A stretch of 32,000 bases of DNA from Candidatus Saccharimonadota bacterium (GCA_001790095.1 MGBH01000001.1:1050001-1082000); one strand, 5' to 3'; shown: positions 448-10,076, counted from the stretch's first letter. Notes: generated by a model from the sequence alone, not told the origin. Made by a program: numbers and translations.

Positions 448-485
448 TTCTAATAGCTAAAAGCTAACGATTTAAAACCAATTTG

Positions 486-556
486 TTACGGGGCCAGGAG
501 TCGAACCATGGTCTAGGAGATTATGAGCCTCCTGTGCAGCCGTACACTACCCCGTA
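486..556 (-). tRNA. tRNA with CAT anticodon (elongator Met or Ile2, not initiator-like)
   Basis: Reverse strand reads TACGGGG-TA-GTGT-ACGGCT-GCAC-A-GGAGG-CTCATAA-TCTCC-TAGAC-CATGG-TTCGACT-CCTGG-CCCCGTA-A. It has a perfect 7-bp acceptor, a CUCAUAA anticodon loop and a TTCGACT T-loop. No CCA is encoded. The T-stem is imperfect (see findings). It lacks the three G-C pairs at the base of the anticodon stem expected of an initiator. Confidence 0.75.
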
Positions 557-590
557 TTTAAGCTATCTTATTATACTCAGTTCAAAGAAG

Positions 591-932
591 CTAATCAACC
601 TGAAAAAATACATTCAACCATTGGCGATAGACAGGCAGGGCTGGGGTGATGATGGGTGTTGGTGAGGGTGAGGGAAGGGGGATTATGATTGCGATTTCAT
701 CGGGTCTAAGGAGTCCTAATTTGTTTCGAATTGTTTTTTCTACCTCATAGACGCTTGTTTTACGAAGTTTTTGGGTTTTAAGAGCTATGTTTTTTTTCTC
801 TTCTGAGGCGACTTCTTCTTTATAGCTTTTATAAAAGGATAGGTTTTTTCGAAAGCCGGTCAAATTTTTATAAAGAGAAAGCATAAGAAATAAAAAAAGA
901 AAAGCAAAGAATAAGCGCTTTAGTAGCCACAT
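591..932 (-). CDS. Small membrane-anchored coiled-coil protein, septum-formation-initiator (FtsB/DivIC)-like
   Basis: 113 aa with an N-terminal TM helix (LFFAFLFLFLMLSLY), a charged coiled-coil stretch and a Pro-rich tail. Size and layout fit FtsB/DivIC. No diagnostic motif. Confidence 0.45.
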   Translation of the reverse strand: MWLLKRLFFAFLFLFLMLSLYKNLTGFRKNLSFYKSYKEEVASEEKKNIALKTQKLRKTSVYEVEKTIRNKLGLLRPDEIAIIIPLPSPSPTPIITPALPVYRQWLNVFFQVD

Positions 933-948
933 AATAGAAAGTATAACA

Positions 949-1392
949 TCATTCCCTCTTCATGTTTTGCAGCGTCTTTATGATGCGAGAAGAGTCGGCC
1001 TTTGTTTTAAGTTCTTTTATACATATACCAATGAGAGCTTTGGGGCTAGTCGCATAGAGATCTTTATTTTTCTCAACGACCGTTTCAACTTCTTTTTTCA
1101 ACTCCTCATCTGTCAGCTCAAGGGGAAGATAGGTAAGGACGATCGCAAGCTGTTTTTGATACTCTGTCACAAGATCGAGTCTTTTGCCCTGTGCAAAAGA
1201 CTGTATTGATTCGTTAAGCTCTTTCTTTATTTTTTGAAGAACAGATATGGCTTCTTCATCGGTCAGTTCGCGCTGGAGTGCTATTTCTTTATTCTTAACC
1301 TGTGATACAATGTATCTGATCGTATCAAGCTTGATTTGGTCTTTTGCTTTTTGAGCAGTTAACTGATCAGCTTGTAATTTTTGTTTTATCAT
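949..1392 (-). CDS. GatB/YqeY domain-containing protein
   Basis: 147 aa. LKxAxKxxDxxxLxTIRxIxSQVKNKEI .. EEAISVLQK .. ELxxYLP fits the YqeY family pattern as I know it. Confidence 0.8.
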   Translation of the reverse strand: MIKQKLQADQLTAQKAKDQIKLDTIRYIVSQVKNKEIALQRELTDEEAISVLQKIKKELNESIQSFAQGKRLDLVTEYQKQLAIVLTYLPLELTDEELKKEVETVVEKNKDLYATSPKALIGICIKELKTKADSSRIIKTLQNMKRE

Positions 1393-1408
1393 TCCATAAT
1401 TATATCCT

Positions 1409-1813
1409 ATGAAAAAAAAGATTCAACGAGACGCACTTGTGCTTCTGGGGATGTTCCAAAAAGATGTTCTGTTGAAAAAACCAGACATTAAGGAAATGAT
1501 AGCTGAGATACACATGATGAGGTTTAGGGTTAAACCGCTTCAGGGAGACCTCTCTGGTATCAATTTTTATAACAGCCTGTTTATAGAGACCTTGTGGAGT
1601 CTGGGTAAGCTTGATGAGTTTTTTCAGGCACAGTATCGGCAGTTAAGCGAAAAAGAGAGGGCGTCTTTTTATAGCTATTTTGATTCATTGCATAAGAAGT
1701 TCCAGGAAGACCTAAACAGGCTCAATTTAAAACAAGAGCGTCGTGAAGGGAAAGCTCCAGTATTGGAGATGGAGATCTACAAAGACAGGCAGAAAAAGAA
1801 AAAACTTAATTAA
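1409..1813 (+). CDS. Hypothetical protein
   Basis: 134-aa ORF, Lys-rich C-terminus, no motif recognised. It is only 16 nt from the divergent YqeY start. Confidence 0.55.
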   Translation: MKKKIQRDALVLLGMFQKDVLLKKPDIKEMIAEIHMMRFRVKPLQGDLSGINFYNSLFIETLWSLGKLDEFFQAQYRQLSEKERASFYSYFDSLHKKFQEDLNRLNLKQERREGKAPVLEMEIYKDRQKKKKLN

Positions 1814-1830
1814 TAATTAGCCAAACATAC

Positions 1831-2409
1831 GTGAAAAAATTTCCTGTTGTATTTGATTTGGAAACAAAATATACATTTCGCGAATACGCCGAACCGAAAA
1901 AACTGGGAATAACCGTCCTGTCTGTCTATGATTATGCTACAGGAGTAGGTAAAACATATACGGAGGGGGAGCTCGCCATGGTGTTTCCGGTATTTGAGAA
2001 GGCATCGTACCTCATCGGATACAACATAGATAGCTTTGATCTGCCTGTTTTACAGGCATATTATCCCGGTGATATCACCCACTTTGCCACTTTAGACATA
2101 CTAGGATATATAAAGGATAAAATAGGCCGAAGACTTGCTCTAAATGATGTTGCAAGCACCACTCTTGGCGTAAAGAAATCAGGACACGGTCTTATGGCGA
2201 TAGAATACTATAAAGAAGGCAAATGGGAGGAACTGAAAAAATATTGCCTTGATGACACCATGATCACCAAACAGCTCTTTGAATATGGTCTAAAATACAA
2301 GGAGATAAACTATCTAACAGAAAACGGAAAAGCTGTCATACGGGTTGACTGGGGCAAGTATATGGAGGATCAGGGAAAAAACGAAACCGCCATGACCCTG
2401 CCGTTTTAA
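1831..2409 (+). CDS. DEDD-type 3'-5' exonuclease-like (RNase H fold) protein
   Basis: GTG start. Exo motifs VVFDLET (ExoI), GYNIDSFDLPVL (ExoII) and YCLDDT (ExoIII). Confidence 0.65.
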   Translation: MKKFPVVFDLETKYTFREYAEPKKLGITVLSVYDYATGVGKTYTEGELAMVFPVFEKASYLIGYNIDSFDLPVLQAYYPGDITHFATLDILGYIKDKIGRRLALNDVASTTLGVKKSGHGLMAIEYYKEGKWEELKKYCLDDTMITKQLFEYGLKYKEINYLTENGKAVIRVDWGKYMEDQGKNETAMTLPF

Positions 2410-2459
2410 GACCGTTTTTTACGCATTGAAATCCTTGGTTTGATGAGATACCATAAAGT

Positions 2460-3131
2460 ATGGGATACTCAGGTAAACTATTTCTTCATGAAAAAGCGAG
2501 GGAACTTCGACTAAAAGGATACTCAGTCCGCACAATTCAAAAAAAACTTGGTGTAGCAAAATCTTCTGTTTCGCTTTGGGTTCGCAACATTATGTTAAGC
2601 GATAAGCAAACCCAACAGCTCTTAAATAGTAAAAGGGCAGGAGGGAAAAAAGGATCGATCCTTGCTGCAAAAAGAAAAATAATAAATAAGGAAAAGCAGA
2701 TTAAAGAAATAACCCTTAAAGCGAATAAAGAAATTGGGACATTAACACAGAAAGAGAAGTTTTTCTTCGGGCTTGCCCTATATTTTGCAGAAGGCGATAA
2801 AAAAGGTCACAATGTGGCATTTACCAATTCTGACCCAGAAGCTATTAAATTTATGGCAAACTGGTTTAGAGATTTTTGCAAAGTTAAGAGCGATAAAATG
2901 AGGTGTTATATATATTTACACGAGAATTTGGATGAAAAAAACGCAAGGAATTATTGGCTCAAAACAACAAAGATTCCTCTCGATCAGTTTAGAAAAACAT
3001 ATAGAGTTTCAAATACAAAAAAAACATTTCGAAAAACAAAATATATATATGGAATTTGTCGAATTTCAATAAGTGATGTTAATCTATTGAGGCGTATTTT
3101 AGGTTGGATATCCGGAGTCTTTAATGTATAA
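2460..3131 (+). CDS. HTH domain plus LAGLIDADG-like (single-motif) homing-endonuclease-like protein
   Basis: 223 aa. N-terminal helix-turn-helix GYSVRTIQKKLGVAKSSVSLWV. The central GLALYFAEGDKKG..VAFTNSDPEAIKFMANWF resembles a LAGLIDADG motif followed by the usual beta strand and helix. It ends 12 nt before the intron-containing tRNA. Confidence 0.45.
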   Translation: MGYSGKLFLHEKARELRLKGYSVRTIQKKLGVAKSSVSLWVRNIMLSDKQTQQLLNSKRAGGKKGSILAAKRKIINKEKQIKEITLKANKEIGTLTQKEKFFFGLALYFAEGDKKGHNVAFTNSDPEAIKFMANWFRDFCKVKSDKMRCYIYLHENLDEKNARNYWLKTTKIPLDQFRKTYRVSNTKKTFRKTKYIYGICRISISDVNLLRRILGWISGVFNV

Positions 3132-3142
3132 TAATTAACGTT

Positions 3143-3429
3143 TCCCCTGTAGCTCAATTGGTAGAGCAGGTCGCTGTGAAAAGACGCAGCCCTTAGTAGA
3201 AATATTAAGGTGAAAATCGGGCTAATTCGAGGAAGACCTCCGAATCGGAGGTTAATCTCGAGCTAAATTTCGACTAATATCGACTAAACGTGTAGAGACT
3301 ATACACCCGACCCCTCAAGAGTCCTCCGAGTCGGAGGATGAAGTGGGGAAGAAATAGTCCATTCCTTAAAGTAATTTAGGGGTTAATGTAACGACAAGGT
3401 TACTGGTCCGAGTCCAGTCGGGGGAGCCA
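3143..3429 (+). tRNA. tRNA-Asn(GTT) interrupted by a group I intron; CCA encoded
   Basis: Exon 1 is 3143-3177 (TCCCCTG TA GCTC AATTGGTA GAGC A GGTCG CTGT). Exon 2 is 3389-3429 (TAA CGACA AGGTT ACTGG TCCGAGT CCAGT CGGGGGA G CCA). The joined anticodon loop is CU-GUU-AA with discriminator G. The sequence is very close to E. coli tRNA-Asn as I recall it. Confidence 0.85.
3178..3388 (+). ncRNA. Group I (IC3-like) self-splicing intron in the tRNA-Asn anticodon
   Basis: P1: exon GCUGU pairs with GCAGC (3186-3190), giving a U-G wobble at the splice site. The terminal G is at 3388. P2 is CCTTA/TAAGG (3191-3210). P3 is TCGGG (3217-3221) with CCCGA (3306-3310). The core is GTAGAGACT (3292-3300) and ATAGTCCATTCCTTAAAG (3354-3371), like cyanobacterial tRNA-Leu introns. 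No internal ORF. Confidence 0.8.
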
Positions 3430-3433
3430 TAAC

Positions 3434-3452
3434 GTACTTAATATAACCAAAA
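3434..3452 (+). repeat. R-motif copy 1 (GTACTTAATATAACCAAAA), 4 nt after the tRNA-Asn 3' end
   Basis: 18/18 identical to 4474-4491 and 17/18 to 5465-5482. The core TTAATATA.CAAA also occurs at 3998-4016. Inverted copies lie at 5429-5448 and 5874-5893. Confidence 0.85.
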
Positions 3453-3465
3453 TTTATAACGTAAC

Positions 3466-3930
3466 ATGAACTGGAGTTTGATAAGTAATATTATTACTGC
3501 CCTTGGTTTATTTGAAATTATCAAAAGGATTCTATTATATGCAATTGATAATAATCTAATAAAAAGGAATTTGGAAGTAAGAGGTATTGCAGAAAGAGTC
3601 CTAACATGGAGCAGTTGGTTAAAATTAAGAAACTTCGAACGACCCTTACCACCTGCCATTGCCAATCAACTTTATCTTGACATTTTTAAAATAGAAGACG
3701 TAGATAAAGAACTATCACAGGATATCATGCGACTAATTAATTATCCTCAGATGAACTCATTCTTACACAAATCTTTGGACAAACAACCTCAAAACATGGA
3801 CATTATCCAAGACAACTGTGAAAAATGTCATGATATGACCGATAAATTAAATAAGAAATGTAATAAACTGCGCTATCAACCTATTATTGATATTAAAAAA
3901 ATCGTTAAATCACTTAGCTTCAAAACCTAA
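3466..3930 (+). CDS. Hypothetical protein with N-terminal hydrophobic helix (island module A)
   Basis: 154-aa ORF. The ATG is 32 nt after the start of R copy 1. The N-terminus LISNIITALGLF resembles ILTNIITWLLT of the next ORF. Confidence 0.55.
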   Translation: MNWSLISNIITALGLFEIIKRILLYAIDNNLIKRNLEVRGIAERVLTWSSWLKLRNFERPLPPAIANQLYLDIFKIEDVDKELSQDIMRLINYPQMNSFLHKSLDKQPQNMDIIQDNCEKCHDMTDKLNKKCNKLRYQPIIDIKKIVKSLSFKT

Positions 3931-3997
3931 TGCAAATATGGACATAAAAATATTAAAGCAGTTCTGATTTAAGTTATAAGCTCAAAGTTAGAGAAAA

Positions 3998-4016
3998 TTA
4001 ATATACGCAAATTATG
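3998..4016 (+). repeat. R-motif core copy (TTAATATACGCAAATTATG) ending in the start codon of CDS 4014
   Basis: 18/19 identical to 5469-5487 (TTAATATACCCAAATTATG). Confidence 0.75.
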
Positions 4017-4436
4017 ATAAAGCAAATTCTCACAAACATTATTACCTGGCTACTTACAACAGGAGTGTCTAAATTTCTTGGATTGGACAAATTCGCAAAT
4101 CAACGAGGGATGGGTGGGAAAGGAGGTAATGCGTTAGGTATCAAGGGAGGACAAGCTATTGGAGGACGCGGCGGAAGAGGTGGTATAGGTAAGGGCGGTG
4201 ATGGAGGTGGCGCTACATCAATAGGCGAGGGTAGTTTTTCTATGGGTGGAGAGGGGGGCGAGGCAGGACAGAAAAAGCGAGGGGGTAAGGGTGGACGTGG
4301 ACCATTGCACGTTCTTATGGAGGAATATCCTGAGAAATTCAAAGAGATTTCTGAAAAATTTGGAATCACGGAGGATATGGCTAAGAGAGTTGGAAAAGGT
4401 GGAGACGGAGGGGGTCCATCGAAAAAAATTAAATAA
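4014..4436 (+). CDS. Glycine-rich repeat protein with N-terminal hydrophobic helix (island module B)
   Basis: 140 aa. After MIKQILTNIITWLLTTGVSKFLGL comes about 75 aa of GG[KRQD]GG-type repeats (GGKGGNALGIKGGQAIGGRGGRGGIGKGGDGGG..GGEGGEAG..GGKGGRG). A charged helical tail follows, ending in KGGDGGGPSKK. Confidence 0.6.
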   Translation: MIKQILTNIITWLLTTGVSKFLGLDKFANQRGMGGKGGNALGIKGGQAIGGRGGRGGIGKGGDGGGATSIGEGSFSMGGEGGEAGQKKRGGKGGRGPLHVLMEEYPEKFKEISEKFGITEDMAKRVGKGGDGGGPSKKIK

Positions 4437-4473
4437 TAGAGCCCCCTATTTGATCTAACGTGGAAGCAATAAT

Positions 4474-4491
4474 GTACTTAATATAACCAAA
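4474..4491 (+). repeat. R-motif copy 2 (GTACTTAATATAACCAAA)
   Basis: Exact 18-nt repeat of 3434-3451, and the preceding ATAA(C/T) is also shared. It lies 31 nt before the ATG of CDS 4505. Confidence 0.85.
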
Positions 4492-4504
4492 GTCCACTTT
4501 CACT

Positions 4505-5335
4505 ATGAATGCTACTCAAAAAGGTCAATACATAAATAGAGTTGAAGATACTAGTCACATTATAAATGAAATAGACAGCTTACTTCATAATTTATTAAAT
4601 AAGAATAGGCTCAAAGAAGAGTGGCAAAGAATTGAGAAGGGCGATTCTAAGAATATACATCCGTTCGTTATGGCGGCATATAAAGCCCATAAACAAATAC
4701 AGAGTTTTATTGAAAAAAAAGTTTTTGCAGTTACTCCTGAAATACTTGAATTGTATGAACTCGCTGTTAAAGCAAACCGATTAAAAAAAGCCAACGTTAA
4801 GGGATTAGATAGTAGGTTAAACACTCTTATCTCTCAGGATTTAAATAAATACTACGAATCTAAATATCAACTTCAGGTAGGTGAAATGTTGTTAAATAAA
4901 GGTTACAAAATTAATTTTATCGAGGAAGAAATAAAGCAGACACCTGACATACTTGTGACTCAATTTAACGAAAGCTGTGAGATAGAGTGTAAACACAAGA
5001 ATCCAAATGAAATATCAAAAGACTATGTTAAAAGTATTTATAATAGCACTCAAATTGCTCGTAAACAGTTTTCAAAATCATATGCGGGACTTATTACTAT
5101 TGATACAAGCGAAGAGCAGCTAAAAAAATGTTCTCTTGAAGATTTAAAAAAAGTAATAGATATTGCAATGAAAAATAGTAAATCAATTTCTGGTGTTTTA
5201 CTGACTTTCAAGAGTATTGAAGAAGACCAAGATGATTTTATATATAGACACAGAGTTGGAGGTTTTTTTAATAATCCAAATGCACGATACAAAATACCAG
5301 AATGGCTATTTAAAAACCTAATCAACGTTGACTAA
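4505..5335 (+). CDS. Hypothetical protein with C-terminal PD-(D/E)xK nuclease-like motif (island module C)
   Basis: 276 aa. ..YESKYQLQVGEMLL..TPDILVTQFNESCEIECKHK.. gives D-x12-E-x-K in the beta-strand context typical of the restriction-endonuclease fold. The N-terminal half is helical and unassigned. Confidence 0.5.
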   Translation: MNATQKGQYINRVEDTSHIINEIDSLLHNLLNKNRLKEEWQRIEKGDSKNIHPFVMAAYKAHKQIQSFIEKKVFAVTPEILELYELAVKANRLKKANVKGLDSRLNTLISQDLNKYYESKYQLQVGEMLLNKGYKINFIEEEIKQTPDILVTQFNESCEIECKHKNPNEISKDYVKSIYNSTQIARKQFSKSYAGLITIDTSEEQLKKCSLEDLKKVIDIAMKNSKSISGVLLTFKSIEEDQDDFIYRHRVGGFFNNPNARYKIPEWLFKNLINVD

Positions 5336-5364
5336 TTAAATGAACAAACATTCACTTTCTCCAC

Positions 5365-5482
5365 CTCTTCTCGTATCTGCTGAACAAGTTTGAAATCTTC
5401 AAATACCTTAATGATATGCCCTAAATACTTGGTTATATTAAAGCTACGCTTCTCGAGCCAGTTGGTACTTAATATACCCAAA
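5365..5482 (+). repeat. Composite inter-module repeat U3-L3-R3
   Basis: U3 (TTCTCGTATCTGCTGAACAAGTTTGAAATCTTCAAATA) is about 75% identical by eye to 8965-9003. L3 is TTGGTTATATTAAAGCTACG (5429-5448), an inverted copy of R. CTCGAGCCAGTTGG resembles the tRNA-Asn segment TCCGAGTCCAGTCGG. R3 is GTACTTAATATACCCAAA (5465-5482). L3 and R3 can form an imperfect hairpin of about 17 bp. Confidence 0.75.
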
Positions 5483-5516
5483 TTATGTTATTATATTTAT
5501 TGGAGGTGATAATATC

Positions 5517-5774
5517 ATGACAGAAGAAAATGTTGCCATTGGTAAAAAAGAATTGAGGTGTTTGTATTGCGGGAACAATACATTTATCAAAGCAAAAACG
5601 CTCTTAAATAGAAGATTCTTCGCAATATTTGATTTAGAAGTATTTAATATGATGACAAAAAGAGGCTTAGGGATAGCTTATATTTGTACTAAATGTGGTT
5701 ATAAGCATGAATTTTTTAAAGACATGCCAAAAGATAGAGGGGAAAGAGTGAAAGAAATGTTTCAAATTCCATAA
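5517..5774 (+). CDS. Small zinc-ribbon protein (island module D)
   Basis: 85 aa with a strong GGAGGTGAT SD. It has two CxxC pairs (CLYCG .. CTKCG). It is preceded by an 11-codon uORF (5485-5520, MLLYLLEVIIS) whose TGA overlaps this ATG (ATGA). Confidence 0.6.
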   Translation: MTEENVAIGKKELRCLYCGNNTFIKAKTLLNRRFFAIFDLEVFNMMTKRGLGIAYICTKCGYKHEFFKDMPKDRGERVKEMFQIP

Positions 5775-5807
5775 GTAGTAATTAACAGAATTGGTTTAAC
5801 TTTTTCT

Positions 5808-5903
5808 ATTTCATCCCTGATTTGAGCTACAAGCCTAAAGCCGGAGAAAGCCTTGATAATATGTGATTAACTCATGGTTATATTATAGTTACGATTCTCG
5901 AGC
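5808..5903 (+). repeat. Composite inter-module repeat U4-L4
   Basis: TTTGAGCTACAAGCCTAAAGCC (5821-5842) matches TTTGAGCTACAAGACTAAAATC (7052-7073). It ends in L4 ATGGTTATATTATAGTTACG (5874-5893, inverted R) plus TTCTCGAGC, as in U3-L3. Confidence 0.7.
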
Positions 5904-5977
5904 TGCACTAGATTAAGAGCCTCACAGGATTCTATTTTCATGGTTGTGGTAAAATATATTAATATTAATTTAAAACT

Positions 5978-6982
5978 ATGTTTTTAAAACTTCTTAAACT
6001 TGGTGCTTTGCTTTTAGTATTTACCATCATGGTAATTGCTGTTGTCAAAAAGAACTCTGTTCGTACTGTTTCTGCCAAAGAGTTCATGGAACAAACCAAC
6101 AACGATTTAAATAGCATTGTTGGCAAAATTCATTTTTACCAAAACAGCTTTGCAAAAGTTGGAAAGTTATTTGGTGAGACACAAACGGCCTTTTATGAAA
6201 TAACTACCAGTCGCACTTACTTTGAATCTGTTAAGGACACAAAAAAAGACATACGAGATATACAAAACCTTCTTCATCAAATTGAGCAGCTTCAGTCCAA
6301 ACGCAAGCAGGTAAATCCACCTAAAGAACTTGAGGTTTTGGCCCAAAACCTTGACGAATATCATATTACCATTCATTCCGCACTTGAAAAACTCCTTATT
6401 CACGAGCAGACACAGGAAAAGCTGCTTGGATTATCTACAGAGAGATATAATCAATTATTAGATCGACTCTCCAGCGTTAAAGATGGTGCGGAATTTGTCA
6501 ATCTAATTCTAGAAATAAATCCTCTAGCACAAAAAGTAATACGAGATATGGATTCTTATTCCCTTCCAGAAGCCGAAAAAGCCATTTTTGCCAATGTTAT
6601 TAAACAACACAGGCTTCAAGCTGATACATTTGCTACTTTAGCACAGCTTATTCAATCTCAAGATCCAAACATGAAAGCAAAATTCGATTCTATCATAAAT
6701 GATTTTTCGTCAAAAATGGATACTTTAAAAAAATCTGATGCGGCGGAGATTTATGTAAAAATTTCTCCTATAGGATCAGAATTTAAAACGGCCTTAAGCT
6801 TAGAGAAAAAAATATATGATTATATTAATAACCTTAACATGTTAAATGTTACCAGTAGTCCCAGTGTATCAGTTATTATCCCTAGTGTAACATCTAACTT
6901 TTCTGTTTCACCAACATTAACTCAACCACCACAAAACCAACTAAACAATCCAGGGCAAGGTAAAGGTAAAAACAAAAAGTGA
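5978..6982 (+). CDS. Membrane-anchored coiled-coil protein with Ser/Thr/Pro-rich basic tail (island module E)
   Basis: 334 aa with an N-terminal TM helix (LGALLLVFTIMVIAVV), a long helical region and a tail SSPSVSVIIPSVTSNFSVSPTLTQPP..GQGKGKNKK. No enzymatic motif. Confidence 0.55.
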   Translation: MFLKLLKLGALLLVFTIMVIAVVKKNSVRTVSAKEFMEQTNNDLNSIVGKIHFYQNSFAKVGKLFGETQTAFYEITTSRTYFESVKDTKKDIRDIQNLLHQIEQLQSKRKQVNPPKELEVLAQNLDEYHITIHSALEKLLIHEQTQEKLLGLSTERYNQLLDRLSSVKDGAEFVNLILEINPLAQKVIRDMDSYSLPEAEKAIFANVIKQHRLQADTFATLAQLIQSQDPNMKAKFDSIINDFSSKMDTLKKSDAAEIYVKISPIGSEFKTALSLEKKIYDYINNLNMLNVTSSPSVSVIIPSVTSNFSVSPTLTQPPQNQLNNPGQGKGKNKK

Positions 6983-7039: not shown

Positions 7040-7116
7040 ATTAGGAGAGCTTTTGAGCTACAAGACTAAAATCAGATTATCCTTTGCTATAGCCATCTTG
7101 CGCATGCTTCGAGGGA
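7040..7116 (+). repeat. Inter-module repeat U5 (degenerate)
   Basis: It shares TTTGAGCTACAAG.CTAAA with U4. Its end GCATGCTTCGAGGGA (7102-7116) recurs as GCATGAGCTTGAGGGA at 8107-8122. Confidence 0.55.
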
Positions 7117-7476: not shown

Positions 7477-7582
7477 AGATGTATTTTAACAAACAACTTC
7501 GGGGGTTCGACAGACAATTCAAAACAATAATTAAGTTAATTCAAGGATTGAATTTTCATCTTAAAACAACACGATGTTCGCT

Positions 7583-7591
7583 TGATATAAT
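7583..7591 (+). promoter_or_regulatory. Extended -10 (TGATATAAT), 6 nt before ATG 7598
   Basis: TGnTATAAT consensus. With this spacing the ATG falls at the expected transcription start. Confidence 0.55.
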
Positions 7592-7597
7592 TTTCAT

Positions 7598-8092
7598 ATG
7601 GATATAAAAATAAGAGAATATACAGAAAAAGATTTGTTGTTTGTTAAGTCTTCATTTGAAAACCTTCATGATTATGTAGTTTCAATAGACCCGATAAAAA
7701 GGATACGGAAAATGCCCGGATATCTCGAAGTTTTTTTTGGAAAGTTTGTCAACAATATTAAAAACAACCAAGGCAAAATCTATATCTCTGAATTTGAAGG
7801 AAAACCGATAGGTTTTGTTGGAGGTTTTGTTGCCGATAAACAGTCCGAGGAAAATTTGTTGGAAGTTATTCCATCACAGTTAGGAATTATTAGTGACATC
7901 TACACTATTCCGGAATATAGGGGAAAAAAAATTGGAGGGCGATTGATAAAACAAATAGAAGAATATTTAGTGTCTAAAAATTGTGATGCAATATGGATAA
8001 ATACAAATGGCTTTAATACTTCAGCGCTTCGACTATATAAATCAATTGGATTTTCAGAAAGAGAAATTGGACTCATGAAAAAAATTAAATAA
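7598..8092 (+). CDS. GNAT family N-acetyltransferase (paralog 1)
   Basis: 164 aa. Acetyl-CoA motif A IPEYRGKKIGGRLI, then AIWINT..NTSALRLYKSIGF. It is about 88% aa identical to CDS 9582..10076. Confidence 0.8.
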   Translation: MDIKIREYTEKDLLFVKSSFENLHDYVVSIDPIKRIRKMPGYLEVFFGKFVNNIKNNQGKIYISEFEGKPIGFVGGFVADKQSEENLLEVIPSQLGIISDIYTIPEYRGKKIGGRLIKQIEEYLVSKNCDAIWINTNGFNTSALRLYKSIGFSEREIGLMKKIK

Positions 8093-8260
8093 AACACTTT
8101 CTAATTGCATGAGCTTGAGGGAGTTTGGAGAATGTTATTATAACCTACTTAATTACAGGATTAAACGGTTCTAAACGGACACGCTTAAACAAGGTGGTCA
8201 TTGTTCTAACGAAATAATTATACTTGTTGTAGATTTCCATTAATGGTAATCTTATAGAAG

Positions 8261-8881: not shown

Positions 8882-8959
8882 GACAAATAACACAAAAATG
8901 CTCGCGAAATCTTCCATTCATTAACTTTTATCACTTGAGAATCAGGCTACATTTTTCAA

Positions 8960-9046
8960 CCTATTTTCGTATTTGCTGAACGAGCCTAAAACCTTCAAAT
9001 ATTTTATAATATACGATAGCTTAATAAACAAACCCCCGAGGTTGTT
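8960..9046 (+). repeat. Inter-module repeat U6
   Basis: TTTTCGTATTTGCTGAACGAGCCTAAAACCTTCAAATA (8965-9002) matches U3. Its 3' part CAAACCCCCGAGGTTGT (9029-9045) is the inverted complement (15/17) of ACAACTTCGGGGGTTCG at 7493-7509. Confidence 0.65.
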
Positions 9047-9480: not shown

Positions 9481-9566
9481 CCATACGCTCCTTATTACTT
9501 CGGTTATGGGGAAGCTAATAGATCACCATTACTTTATTTTCAACTTCAAACAGCGTTCGGTACTCT

Positions 9567-9575
9567 TGATATAAT
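9567..9575 (+). promoter_or_regulatory. Extended -10 (TGATATAAT), 6 nt before ATG 9582
   Basis: Same element as 7583-7591. Confidence 0.55.
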
Positions 9576-9581
9576 CACCAT

Positions 9582-10076
9582 ATGGATATAGACATAAGAG
9601 AATATACAGAAAAAGATTTGTTGTTTGTTAAGTCTTCATTTGAAAACCTTCATGATTATGTAGTTTCAATAGACCCGATAAAAAGGATACGGAAAATGCC
9701 CGGATATCTCGAAGTTTTTTTTGAAAAGTTTGTCAACAATATTAAAAACAACCAAGGCAAAATCTATATCTCTGAATTTGAAGGAAAACCAATAGGCTTT
9801 ATCGGAGGTTTTGTTGCTGATAAACAGTCTACGGAAAATCTGTTAGAGGTTGTTCCGTCTAAACTCGGAATTATCAGCGATATTTATCTTATTCCGGAAT
9901 ATAGGGGTAAAAAGATAGGAGAAAAACTCATGAAACGCATGGAAGAATATCTTATTTCTAATAATTGTGATGCGATATGGGTAGATACAAATAGCTTTAA
10001 TAAACCAGCACTTCGATTATATAAATCAATTGGATTTTCTGAAAGAGAAATTGGGCTCATGAAGAAAATTAAATAA
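9582..10076 (+). CDS. GNAT family N-acetyltransferase (paralog 2)
   Basis: 164 aa with IPEYRGKKIGEKLM and ALRLYKSIGF. Paralog of 7598..8092. Confidence 0.8.
   Translation: MDIDIREYTEKDLLFVKSSFENLHDYVVSIDPIKRIRKMPGYLEVFFEKFVNNIKNNQGKIYISEFEGKPIGFIGGFVADKQSTENLLEVVPSKLGIISDIYLIPEYRGKKIGEKLMKRMEEYLISNNCDAIWVDTNSFNKPALRLYKSIGFSEREIGLMKKIK

What the first reader, a model, noticed from the sequence alone, without database searches (positions are those of the whole stretch)
3434..5893. R-motif (GTACTTAATATAACCAAA) repeated before four ORFs, with inverted copies bracketing single-gene segments
Direct copies lie at 3434-3452, 4474-4491 (18/18 identical) and 5465-5482 (17/18), with a core copy at 3998-4016. 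Inverted copies with small insertions lie at 5429-5448 (TTGGTTATATTAAAGCTACG) and 5874-5893 (ATGGTTATATTATAGTTACG). Two consequences follow. First, 4474-5448 (the PD-(D/E)xK-like gene) and 5465-5893 (the zinc-ribbon gene) are each bracketed by inverted repeats of about 18 bp. Second, L3 and R3 form an imperfect bulged hairpin of about 17 bp at the module junction (5429-5482). The motif contains TAATAT. In two copies it is followed 9 nt later by an ATG that is used: the start of CDS 4014, and an 11-codon uORF (5485-5520) whose stop overlaps the ATG of CDS 5517. In the other two copies the ORF starts 31-32 nt after the start of the motif. The motif could therefore be a portable promoter or leaderless-start module, a recombination site, or both. 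The arrangement resembles integron cassettes but lacks their sequence signatures.
Basis: seen in the sequence. Interest (0 to 1): 0.7.

Follow-up and report, generated by a model that had tools for sequence, protein, structure and literature searches.

The report
Serine-integrase attachment half-sites at tRNA-Asn
The repeated 18-base motif and its inverted copies are the two arms of the attachment site of a large serine integrase family from uncultivated (CPR) bacteria, and they mark a pile-up of integrase-less mobile-element remnants next to a tRNA-Asn gene.

Summary
GTACTTAATATAACCAAA occurs three times, twice exactly and once with one mismatch.

The inverted copies are not free-standing. 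They lie in the last ~40 codons, on the minus strand, of a large serine recombinase (LSR) gene family of Microgenomates. The direct motif corresponds to the codons just upstream in that gene.

Together the two arms form a ~54-bp dyad centred on GA. R1 is fused at that centre to the 3' end of a tRNA-Asn gene, which carries a group I intron.

In a syntenic relative (L102) the same tRNA is followed by an intact LSR gene. That gene reads into the tRNA antisense (..WLPRLDSDQ*), and its displaced tail lies ~11 kb away. Of the 120 closest LSR homologues, at least 86 end this way and 9 keep the tail.

The window therefore holds a decayed tandem array of integrase-less elements, each bounded by a P' arm on the left and a P arm plus tail remnant on the right.

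- **Recombination-site reading:** supported.
- **Promoter reading for the motif itself:** not supported.
- **Kinship with integrons:** not supported.

The new features are a tRNA target for an LSR and an attP lying inside the integrase's own 3' coding end. All evidence is computational.

The parts
3143..3429 (+). tRNA-Asn(GUU) gene. The 5' exon is 3143-3177, the group I intron 3178-3388 and the 3' exon 3389-3429. Its 3' end supplies the chromosomal (B) arm of the attachment site.
   Evidence: Rfam Intron_gpI scores 66.4 bits at 3166-3381. The exons match the intron-less tRNA-Asn of L036, L075 and L097. ARAGORN and Rfam's default filters both miss the gene.
3405..3451 (.). attL-type hybrid junction. 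It joins the tRNA-Asn 3' end (B arm), the centre GA at 3424-3425, and the P' arm, which contains motif R1 (3434-3451).
   Evidence: The same tRNA-Asn|P' junction occurs in L036, L046, L055, L062, L075, L097, L101 and L102; L067 and L083 carry the same kind of junction to a tRNA-type 3' end cut at the contig edge. Synteny with L102 ends at window position 3448. The reverse complement reads VILSTLWLPRLDSDQ, like the C-terminus of the integrated integrase P0050.
3466..3930 (+). Cargo gene p154, function unknown. It forms the tRNA-proximal cassette.
   Evidence: ORF list. No match in Pfam, PADLOC or PHROGs. It is absent from L075, where the p140 homologue directly follows tRNA-Asn|P'.
3968..4011 (.).
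   Evidence: Repeat family D3. In L075 the p140 homologue is preceded by an intact tRNA-Asn|P' arm, GAGCTTAATATAACCAAA.
4014..4436 (+). Cargo gene p140, a Gly-rich protein.
   Evidence: The L075 homologue, 89% nt and 92% aa identical, is the first gene after tRNA-Asn|P'.
4445..4491 (.). A degenerate tRNA-3'-end-like arm joined to a P' arm (motif R2, 4474-4491). This is an internal attL-like remnant.
   Evidence: The 33-nt family D5 is 88% identical to the tRNA|R1 junction. The same class, TCTAAC...GGAGCC | R, recurs in L044, L053, L056, L065 and L077.
4505..5335 (+). Cargo gene p276, function unknown.
   Evidence: ORF list. The only hit is a faint restriction-endonuclease PHROG (E = 0.008).
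5335..5475 (-). Remnant of the integrase 3' end. It codes ..ILSTNW LEKRSFNITKYLGHIIKVFEDFKLVQQIREEVEKV.., which is the LSR C-terminal tail plus a few upstream codons.
   Evidence: - tblastn to full-length LSRs gives E = 8e-12 to 1e-8.
- The nhmmer unit hit has E = 2e-32.
- Codon-position entropy over 32 units is 0.40/0.24/0.84.
- The same tail ends a 531-aa LSR in L048.
5429..5482 (.). A complete attP-like site. The P arm is 5429-5454, the centre GA 5455-5456, and the P' arm 5457-5482 (contains motif R3).
   Evidence: The dyad has 13-nt arms, 92% complementary, 27 nt apart. The motif starts 13 nt after the centre in 14 independent units. Identity with the tRNA junction begins at the centre, GAGCCA.
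5517..5774 (+). Cargo gene p85 (CxxC..CxxC zinc ribbon), preceded by a Shine-Dalgarno sequence and the uORF at 5485-5520.
5783..5941 (-). Second integrase 3' fragment, disrupted by a stop/frameshift. It reads MKIESCEALNLVQLENRNYNITMS*SHIIKAFSGFRLVAQIRDEIEKVKP.
   Evidence: tblastn to P0014 gives E = 1e-11 over integrase residues 480-532. nhmmer gives E = 7e-23.
5874..5925 (.). Second attP-like site.
   Evidence: The integrase homology is contiguous across the centre. No strict inverted repeat is detected, so the P' arm belongs to another integrase lineage or has decayed.
5978..6982 (+). Cargo gene p334, a secreted or membrane-anchored protein of unknown function.
7052..7089 (-). A weak, heavily degraded integrase-tail fragment.
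   Evidence: Repeat family D3, 74% identity. It is not significant by nhmmer.
8125..8240 (.). A further fragment of the family, made of P'-arm-equivalent sequence plus tRNA-3'-like sequence. It lies upstream of the MFS gene.
   Evidence: Local alignment to L037 scores 64 against a shuffle maximum of 35. In L044 a 94% identical MFS gene starts directly after a unit.
8942..9020 (-). Integrase-tail fragment with an internal stop (IFEGFRLVQQIRK*VEKC). This is the most distal recognisable remnant of the array.
   Evidence: nhmmer E = 2e-9. tblastn hits.

Best explanation
**What it is.** The R motif is the outer, conserved part of the P' arm of the attachment site of a family of large serine recombinases (LSRs) found in Microgenomates (CPR bacteria). 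The 'inverted copies' are the matching P arm.

**The site in autonomous elements.** The whole ~54-bp site has the form P arm - GA - P' arm. It lies inside the 3' end of the integrase gene itself, in the segment coding for the linker before a ~40-residue C-terminal tail.

**The reaction (inferred).**
1. The integrase recombines this attP with an attB formed by the extreme 3' end of tRNA-Asn (..GGGG GA GCCA).
2. The crossover falls within GAGC. The tRNA stays intact because the P' arm supplies GCCA.
3. After integration the integrase gene, next to the P' arm, reads into the tRNA antisense and ends ..LPRLDSDQ*.
4. Its tail codons, with the P arm, are left at the far end of the element.

**What the window holds.** It carries no integrase. 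Over at least 3430-5930, and probably as far as ~9020, it holds several short integrase-less remnants stacked at tRNA-Asn. Each is bounded on the tRNA side by a P' arm (R1, the core copy, R2, R3, R4). On the far side each is bounded by a P arm plus a tail remnant; this holds for the p154, p276 and p85 segments, while for p140 the far boundary is the tRNA-like | R2 junction.

**Shown:**
- the homology of the repeats to LSR 3' ends;
- the tRNA junctions;
- complete elements in relatives;
- the dyad geometry.

**Inferred:**
- that the LSR binds and cuts these arms;
- that the crossover dinucleotide is GA;
- how the tandem array arose;
- that the remnants are now immobile.
For: - **The unit is the end of an LSR gene.** It is the C-terminus of a 531-aa ORF in L048 carrying Resolvase, Recombinase and Zn_ribbon_recom domains. 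The AlphaFold model of homologue P0014 best matches the SPbeta, Bxb1, PhiC31 and LI serine integrases.
- **The unit evolves as coding sequence.** Codon-position entropies are 0.40/0.24/0.84 over 32 units.
- **The motif's reverse complement is integrase coding sequence.** It codes the residues just before the tail: NLGILSTNW-LEKRS in the window and ARLGILRTEM-LEKRS in L065.
- **The tRNA-Asn|P' junction recurs.** It is found in at least nine loci with a recognisable tRNA-Asn: the window, L036, L046, L055, L062, L075, L097, L101 and L102; L067 and L083 show the same junction cut at the contig edge.
- **Complete elements exist in relatives.** In L097 and L102 the integrase reads into tRNA-Asn, and the displaced tail lies ~11 kb away beside GA GC(C)A...
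- **L102 is syntenic with the window.** Homology runs over window 481-3448 and ends inside R1.
- **Most homologues look integrated.** Of the 120 best, 53 end in a tRNA-antisense peptide, 33 stop at the junction, and 9 keep the tail.
- **The arm geometry is fixed.** The motif starts 13 nt after the centre in 14 unique units. The dyad has 13-nt arms 27 nt apart. This gives a half-site of about 26 bp, against 25 bp for the A118/LI attP (PMC3783163).
- **B' arms fit attB geometry.** In L097, L102 and L036 a TTATA-type motif lies about 6 bp nearer the centre. That is the attB geometry described for LSRs (PMC3783163). This was judged by eye.
- **The recombination point falls in a linker.** It lies in a predicted unstructured stretch of the protein (pLDDT below 50 at residues 486-498), followed by two helices.
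Against: - No LSR gene lies in the window, and I could not search the rest of the 1.2-Mb source genome.
- Nothing here shows binding or cleavage.
- The tRNA-side B arm shows no resemblance to the other three arms.
- Internal complete P|P' sites and internal tRNA-like|P' junctions are not what strict attP x attB recombination predicts. The origin of the array is therefore unexplained.
- All 24 population contigs read show the same arrangement, so there is no sign of current mobility.
- Some 'same unit, different flank' pairs in metagenome contigs could be assembly chimeras at repeats.
- The B' motif shift was judged by eye on three or four sites. It did not stand out in the unbiased scan.
Confidence: 0.85

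Rival explanations
1. The motif is a portable promoter or leaderless-start module that drives the gene downstream of each copy. This could hold instead of, or in addition to, its being a recombination arm.
For: - In about 15 independent cassettes a plus-strand ORF starts 28-41 nt after the motif start. In the window the distances are 32 and 31 nt; in L036 the distance is 31 nt.
- About half of these ORFs have a -10-like hexamer, often preceded by TGn, 5-7 nt before the ATG. That arrangement suggests leaderless mRNAs. Examples are L030, L047, L049, L056, L070 and window R1 (TATAAC-GTAAC-ATG).
Against: - The -10-like hexamers lie 3-8 nt downstream of the conserved 18-mer, not inside it. R2 has none.
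- The sigma-70 scan finds 9 sites against 11 expected. It places none on R1 or R2.
- In autonomous elements the motif is antisense to integrase coding sequence and is followed by the integrase, not by a plus-strand gene.
- This reading does not explain the inverted copies, the tRNA junction or the tail remnants.
Confidence: 0.2
2. The array is an active gene-cassette platform that works like an integron. Integrase-less cassettes, each carrying one complete P|P' site when circular, would be excised and re-inserted at tRNA-Asn by an LSR supplied in trans.
For: - The architecture P' - gene(s) - tail - P recurs in arrays on one strand in many contigs. L065 has four units in 6.5 kb; see also L055, L062 and L064.
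- The P' arm is retained at a uniform ~26 nt although the integrase body is gone.
- p140 is first after the tRNA in L075 but second in the window, behind an extra p154 cassette. This suggests insertion on the tRNA-proximal side.
- In L099 and L100 a full-length, tail-bearing integrase lies next to a tRNA-like|P' remnant. That is the expected outcome if an incoming element recombined with an occupied site.
Against: - Canonical LSRs recombine only attP x attB, or attL x attR with an RDF (PMC3783163).
- Integrase fragments of many lengths (13, 20, 84 and 147 codons) adjoin the sites. This looks like progressive deletion rather than precise cassette formation.
- Many tail units carry stops, frameshifts or insertions.
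- No population variant in cassette content is seen among the 24 contigs read.
Confidence: 0.2
3. The inverted copies are sites of a DNA inversion switch (a shufflon or invertase system) that flips the single-gene segments they bracket.
For: Inverted 13-18-nt repeats bracket 4474-5448 and 5465-5893. Serine recombinases include invertases.
Against: - The left-hand members R1 and R2 are half-sites fused to tRNA or tRNA-like sequence, not complete sites.
- All contigs of the population show a single orientation.
- The same arms are explained by integration junctions in relatives.
- No recombinase is encoded in the window.
Confidence: 0.03
4. The repeats are terminal inverted repeats of miniature transposons (MITE or IS remnants) that carry passenger genes.
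For: The unit is multi-copy, ~120 nt long and spread over many CPR contigs. There were 56 stretches from one exact 18-mer scan.
Against: - There are no target-site duplications.
- Placement is tied to tRNA-Asn.
- The unit is the 3' end of an LSR gene, with protein-level conservation and no transposase.
- The motif itself gives only scattered single chance hits across 185,579 species genomes, apart from one Collierbacteria locus that has the same cassette layout.
Confidence: 0.03

Closest known systems
Large serine integrases of temperate phages and integrative elements (A118/LI, Bxb1, PhiC31, SPbeta) and their attP/attB/attL/attR sites
   Same: - The enzyme architecture is the same: Resolvase, Recombinase and zinc-ribbon domains, with a coiled coil inserted in the zinc-ribbon domain.
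- The site is short and pseudo-palindromic, with half-sites of about 25-26 bp around a central dinucleotide.
- Hybrid junctions flank the integrated element.
- The outer motif lies nearer the centre in the bacterial arm.
   Different: - The target is the 3' end of a tRNA gene. [quoted passage not shown]
- attP lies inside the integrase's own 3' coding region, so integration swaps the C-terminal ~40 residues for a short tRNA-antisense peptide.
- The hosts are CPR bacteria.
Staphylococcal cassette chromosome (SCC) composite islands, mobilised by the Ccr serine recombinases (from my own knowledge)
   Same: - An LSR-type recombinase integrates elements at the 3' end of one conserved gene.
- Several elements, including recombinase-less ones, stack in tandem.
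- The elements are separated by repeats of the integration-site sequence and have inverted repeats at their ends.
- This is the best analogue for the window's array.
   Different: - The target here is tRNA-Asn rather than rlmH (orfX).
- The repeats here carry integrase tail codons.
- No homology to Ccr was tested.
- Mobility of the remnants has not been shown.
Integration-dependent immunity of mycobacteriophages (BPs, Brujita), and the splitting of the integrase gene on integration in SSV1-type archaeal viruses
   Same: - attP lies inside a protein-coding gene of the element.
- attB overlaps a tRNA 3' end.
- Integration therefore replaces the 3' end of that gene and changes the protein's C-terminus (PMC9262239).
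   Different: - Those systems use tyrosine integrases with a 35-bp or larger common core.
- The gene affected in the mycobacteriophages is the repressor.
- In SSV1 the integrase is split in two.
- Here an LSR loses only its own C-terminal tail. The consequence of that loss is unknown.
Integron gene cassettes (IntI, attI, attC)
   Same: Arrays of short, mostly single-gene units on one strand. Each unit is followed by an imperfect-dyad recombination site, and there are signs that new units enter at the proximal end.
   Different: - The recombinase belongs to a different superfamily (serine rather than tyrosine).
- There is no attC structure or core sites.
- The inter-cassette repeat is a gene fragment.
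- Cassette genes appear to bring their own promoters.

Membership tests
LSR attachment sites (attP, attL, attR) | Physical association with a gene for a large serine recombinase (Resolvase + Recombinase + Zn-ribbon/coiled coil) | tested here: met
   Met in related loci. In L048 the unit is the gene's 3' end. In L097, L101 and L102 the integrase abuts the tRNA-Asn|P' junction. Within the window itself only 3' fragments of the gene remain.
LSR attachment sites (attP, attL, attR) | A site of about 40-55 bp with imperfect dyad symmetry around a central dinucleotide, and half-sites of about 20-25 bp | tested here: met
   The site at 5429-5482 has 13-nt arms, 92% complementary, 27 nt apart, with its centre at G5455/A5456. 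The motif sits at a fixed offset of +13 in 14 units. For comparison, the A118 half-site is 25 bp.
LSR attachment sites (attP, attL, attR) | The integrated element is flanked by hybrid sites whose breakpoints coincide with the centre of the dyad | tested here: met
   L097 and L102 have attL (tRNA|P'-int) and attR (P-tail|GC(C)A..) about 11 kb apart. In the window, identity between tRNA|R1 and L3|R3 begins at GAGCCA, which is the dyad centre.
LSR attachment sites (attP, attL, attR) | attB half-sites carry the outer (ZD) motif about 5 bp nearer the centre than attP half-sites do | tested here: inconclusive
   A TTATA-type motif lies about 6 bp nearer the centre in the B' arms of L097, L102 and L036, judged by eye. 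It is not evident in the tRNA-side B arm, and there is no clear second peak in the unbiased scan.
LSR attachment sites (attP, attL, attR) | Recombination by the cognate integrase, with a 2-bp staggered cut at the central dinucleotide | not testable with these tools
   This needs in vitro or in vivo recombination assays.
Integron (IntI / attI / attC cassettes) | An IntI-type tyrosine recombinase next to the array | tested here: not met
   There is no tyrosine recombinase in the window ORFs scanned. The associated enzyme family is an LSR.
Integron (IntI / attI / attC cassettes) | attC sites with 5'-RYYYAAC ... GTTRRRY-3' core sites, conserved in structure rather than in sequence | tested here: not met
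   The arms read 5'-GGTTATAT...ATATAACC-3', the opposite order, and GTTATAT does not fit GTTRRRY. The repeat is conserved as protein-coding sequence.
Sigma-70 promoter | -35 and -10 hexamers with 16-18 nt spacing within the conserved motif | tested here: not met
   No qualifying site lies on R1 or R2. Only R3 has a 9/12 match, TTAATA-17-TATATT. The region shows 9 sites against 11 expected.

The most novel reading that the evidence does not exclude
This LSR family may use the position of attP inside its own gene as a built-in switch. The circular element would make a full-length integrase with a two-helix C-terminal tail. The integrated element would make a tail-less enzyme ending in a tRNA-antisense peptide. 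The two forms would differ in directionality, stability or activity, acting like an RDF or a degradation tag.

A corollary follows. Each new integration at an occupied tRNA-Asn would restore a tail to the resident integrase and leave a P|P' junction. Over time this would build arrays whose integrase-less cassettes can still be moved in trans. That would amount to an integron-like gene-capture platform run by a serine recombinase in CPR bacteria.
Probability: 0.2. Interest if true: 0.8.

Novelty: new variant of a known kind. Interest (0 to 1): 0.6.

Why it matters
- **It explains a puzzling repeat.** The pattern is accounted for by known chemistry, namely serine-integrase attachment arms.
- **It exposes an abundant integrative-element family.** The family is apparently undescribed and is found in Microgenomates, with 827 homologues at E <= 1e-20.
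- **The family has two unusual properties.** It targets a tRNA gene, which has been considered the province of tyrosine integrases. Its attP is embedded in its own 3' coding end, so integration remodels the enzyme's C-terminus.
- **It marks a hotspot of gene turnover.** In genomes of about 1 Mb, tRNA-Asn is the site where defence cargo arrives. Restriction-modification and toxin-antitoxin genes are carried by the elements in L097, L101 and L102.
- **It offers candidate tools.** The short, computationally defined attP/attB pairs are candidates for new orthogonal integrases and for genetic tools in CPR bacteria.
- **It raises an annotation problem.** Intron-bearing tRNAs are missed by standard tools. 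Integrase 'tails' get called as 40-80-aa hypothetical proteins. Integrase ORFs run through tRNA genes.

Tried and rejected
- **Phage origin.** There is no DNA similarity to 50,697 phage records. The gene content is that of a cellular CPR bacterium.
- **Motif scan of 185,579 species genomes.** This gave 24 single hits spread across unrelated phyla, which is chance level. Only the Collierbacteria locus L030 shares extended flanks and the cassette layout. The source genome is not in that collection.
- **Viral-contig scans.** The motif and the L arm gave only chance hits.
- **The unit as a small independent gene.** I first read the unit as an RHH-like or antitoxin gene of 43-83 aa, because eight such 'proteins' exist in the database. 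I rejected this for two reasons. The codon before LEKRS is variable and often not a start, and is sometimes a stop. The same sequence ends full-length LSRs.
- **Pfam scan of the peptide.** It found nothing meaningful.
- **The L037 segment as a degenerate tRNA.** Rfam gave no support.
- **tRNA 3'-end duplication by a tyrosine-integrase island.** I rejected this because the enzyme found at the junction is an LSR, and the shared core is only 4-9 bp.
- **Hairpin or terminator function.** No terminator-like sites were found, and the fold is weak.
- **Delimiting the array's right end.** The far flanks of L102 and L097 show no homology to the window.
- **Function of the cargo.** PADLOC and PHROGs scans of the window's cargo were essentially empty.

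Full report
**Observation**

The motif GTACTTAATATAACCAAA is exact at 3434-3451 and 4474-4491 and has one mismatch at 5465-5482. None of 100 shuffles gave three or more matches.

The 13-nt core is exact on the minus strand at 5429-5441. It has two mismatches at 5874-5886 (minus strand) and at 3998-4010 (plus strand). It is absent from the rest of the window and from the extra upstream sequence in L004-L007.

**Context**

The window is a stretch of a CPR (Microgenomates-type) chromosome. It is identical to NCBI GCA_001790195.1, contig MGBN01000001.1, and to several metagenome contigs. It carries ordinary cellular genes and has no phage similarity.

Four bases upstream of R1 a tRNA gene ends that ARAGORN and Rfam's default filters both miss. 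It is tRNA-Asn(GUU), interrupted in the anticodon loop by a group I intron (Rfam 66.4 bits). The exons are 3143-3177 and 3389-3429, defined by comparison with intron-less orthologues.

**What the inverted copies are**

They sit inside a ~120-nt unit that follows several plus-strand genes. On the minus strand the unit reads as protein: LEKRSFNITKYLGHIIKVFEDFKLVQQIREEVEKV.

An exact scan of metagenomes for the L arm (GGTTATATTAAAGCTACG) returned 56 stretches, many holding several units on one strand. Over 32 ungapped units the entropy by codon position is 0.40/0.24/0.84. That is the signature of coding sequence.

The codon before LEKRS is variable and often not a start. In L048, however, the unit is the C-terminus of a 531-aa ORF. 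That ORF has Resolvase, Recombinase and Zn_ribbon_recom domains. The unit is therefore the 3' end of a large serine recombinase (LSR) gene.

The AlphaFold model of homologue P0014 best matches the SPbeta, Bxb1, PhiC31 and LI integrases.

**What the direct motif is**

Its reverse complement codes the residues just upstream of LEKRS in these integrases:
- NLGILSTNW in the window;
- ARLGILRTEM in L065;
- LVILSTLW in L070.

So L3 and R3 are not two separate elements. Together they are one contiguous piece of integrase 3' coding sequence containing a dyad: TTGGTTATATTAA, then 27 nt, then TTAATATACCCAA, centred on G5455/A5456.

In 14 independent units the motif starts exactly 13 nt after that centre. 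Half-sites of about 26 bp around a central dinucleotide are what LSR attP sites look like. The A118/LI attP has 25-bp half-sites (PMC3783163).

**The tRNA junction**

Identity between tRNA|R1 (..GGGGGAGCCATAACGTAC..) and L3|R3 (..TTCTCGAGCCAGTTGGTAC..) begins at GAGCCA, which is the dyad centre.

The same junction, tRNA-Asn 3' end followed by the P' arm, occurs in L036, L046, L055, L062, L075, L097, L101 and L102; L067 and L083 show the same kind of junction cut at the contig edge. L046 also carries the intron (102 bits).

In L097 and L102 an intact integrase gene follows the P' arm on the opposite strand. It reads into the tRNA antisense (..QVIIREDWLPRLDSDQ*). Its missing tail is found about 11 kb away, next to GA GC(C)A... 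Examples of the displaced tail are LRKPKHIYNHSLDCIIKAFQNVVYMGELKQRW.. and ..DQLIKTFQNVAYMGEMKQRWLEIKKL.

L102 is syntenic with the window. It has the same LAGLIDADG-like ORF, the same intron-bearing tRNA-Asn, and the RNase H-like and YqeY genes. Its homology with the window stops at position 3448, inside R1.

Among the 120 best of 827 homologues, 53 end in a tRNA-antisense peptide (..L[PR][RG]xDSN..). A further 33 stop right at the junction, and 9 keep the tail. The integrated, tail-less configuration is therefore the common state of this family.

**Mechanism**

Shown: attP lies in the integrase's own 3' end, and attB is the last bases of tRNA-Asn. The crossover falls inside the shared GAGC. 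The P' arm supplies GCCA, so the tRNA stays whole.

Inferred: integrase dimers bind the P, P', B and B' arms and exchange strands at GA.

The recombination point is coded in a segment the model predicts to be unstructured (pLDDT below 50 at residues 486-498), ahead of two tail helices. This would tolerate the sequence constraint that the site imposes.

In three or four B' arms a TTATA-type motif lies about 6 bp nearer the centre. That fits the attB geometry described for LSRs. It was judged by eye and did not stand out in the unbiased scan.

**What the window holds**

No integrase body is present. From left to right the array reads:

| Position in array | Feature | Cargo that follows |
|---|---|---|
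| 1 | tRNA-Asn \| P' (R1) | p154 |
| 2 | degraded tail + degenerate P' (the 'core copy') | p140 |
| 3 | tRNA-like remnant \| P' (R2) | p276 |
| 4 | tail + complete P \| P' site (L3 \| R3) | p85 |
| 5 | frameshifted 55-codon integrase fragment with P \| diverged P' (L4 \| R4) | p334 |

Weaker fragments follow at 7052-7089, 8125-8240 and 8942-9020.

In L075 a p140 homologue (89% nt identity) is the first gene after tRNA-Asn|P'. So p154 is an extra, tRNA-proximal unit in the window, and the 'core copy' is a decayed P' arm.

The array is best read as stacked, largely decayed integrations. Integrase fragments of 13, 20, 84 and 147 codons adjoin such sites elsewhere, and many tails carry stops or insertions. 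This points to erosion by deletion.

Internal complete P|P' sites are not predicted by strict attP x attB recombination. One scenario consistent with L099/L100 is integration of a newcomer into an occupied B|P' site, which would also restore a tail to the resident integrase. That remains speculation.

**Promoter question**

The sigma-70 scan shows no enrichment and places nothing on R1 or R2. Even so, first cassette genes very often start 28-41 nt after the motif. About half of them have a -10-like hexamer 5-7 nt before the ATG, which suggests leaderless mRNAs. These hexamers lie outside the 18-mer.

**Comparison and novelty**

The system works like a serine-integrase element, and the stacked remnants resemble SCC composite islands. 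The remodelling of a gene's 3' end by integration at a tRNA recalls integration-dependent immunity, which uses tyrosine integrases and places attP in the repressor gene.

[quoted passage not shown] My literature searches found no description of an LSR with attP inside its own coding end, nor of this CPR family. The library searched is incomplete. I classify the finding as a new variant of a known kind.

**Caveats**

- Everything here is computational.
- Metagenome contigs can be chimeric at repeats.
- The classification of C-termini used regular expressions.
- The rest of the source genome could not be searched.

Noticed in passing
window 3143-3429: The tRNA-Asn(GUU) gene is interrupted after anticodon-loop position 35 by a 211-nt group I intron (3178-3388). 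ARAGORN and Rfam's default-filter scan both miss it. The intron is also present in L102 and L046, and probably in L099. It is absent from L036, L075, L097 and L101.
   Followed up: partly
window 2460-3131: A 223-aa ORF with an N-terminal HTH and a single LAGLIDADG-like motif (GLALYFAEGDK) lies directly upstream of the intron-bearing tRNA. A homologue sits in the same place in L102, which has the intron. It is missing in the intron-less L097 and L036. It may be a free-standing homing endonuclease for the tRNA intron, not a partner of the motif.
   Followed up: partly
window 7552-7851 and 9536-9835: A 1984-bp direct repeat, 92% identical over 300 nt, carries paralogous GNAT acetyltransferase genes. 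One population variant (L002/L005) lacks one repeat unit together with the MFS and 110-aa genes, which suggests repeat-mediated deletion.
   Followed up: no
L044, L049, L052, L056, L059, L062, L072, L073 (inside the integrase-tail units): A ~22-nt palindromic mini-insert, ATCCTTCGACTTCGCTCAGGAT and variants, interrupts the tail units at different positions in different contigs. It looks like a separate tiny mobile hairpin element of CPR genomes.
   Followed up: no
L097 1-11564; L102 555-11800; L101 1-11549: The intact ~11-kb elements at tRNA-Asn carry defence cargo.
- L097: Vsr + Dcm methylase + NgoFVII-like endonuclease, and SocA_Panacea.
- L102: N6/N4 methylase + DEAD/ResIII helicase + DUF6602, and an extra small resolvase.
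- L101: type I hsdRMS.
   Followed up: no
window 3452-3468; L030, L046, L047, L049, L056, L070 (20 nt before the first cassette ATG): A -10-like hexamer, often with TGn, ends 5-7 nt before the ATG with no Shine-Dalgarno sequence. This suggests leaderless mRNAs for many first cassette genes. Other genes in the window use GGAGG.
   Followed up: partly
window 5485-5520: An 11-codon uORF has a stop that overlaps the ATG of the zinc-ribbon gene (ATGA at 5517-5520). A Shine-Dalgarno sequence lies inside the uORF, so translational coupling is possible.
   Followed up: no
database proteins P0001-P0008 and P0009-P0128: Public gene calls contain two artefacts caused by this system. One is 43-83-aa 'hypothetical proteins' that are displaced integrase tails, some of which run through tRNA antisense (P0003). 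The other is integrase ORFs whose last 4-40 residues are translated tRNA antisense.
   Followed up: yes
L103 7509-9125 and 14213-15892: One 17.8-kb contig carries two LSR genes of this type. One of them is tail-bearing with an intact attP, and no tRNA is nearby. It may be an unintegrated or differently integrated element.
   Followed up: no
window 4014-4436: A 140-aa protein has an N-terminal hydrophobic helix and a long Gly-rich (GGxGG) middle region. It is 92% conserved in another genome (L075) as cassette cargo.
   Followed up: no
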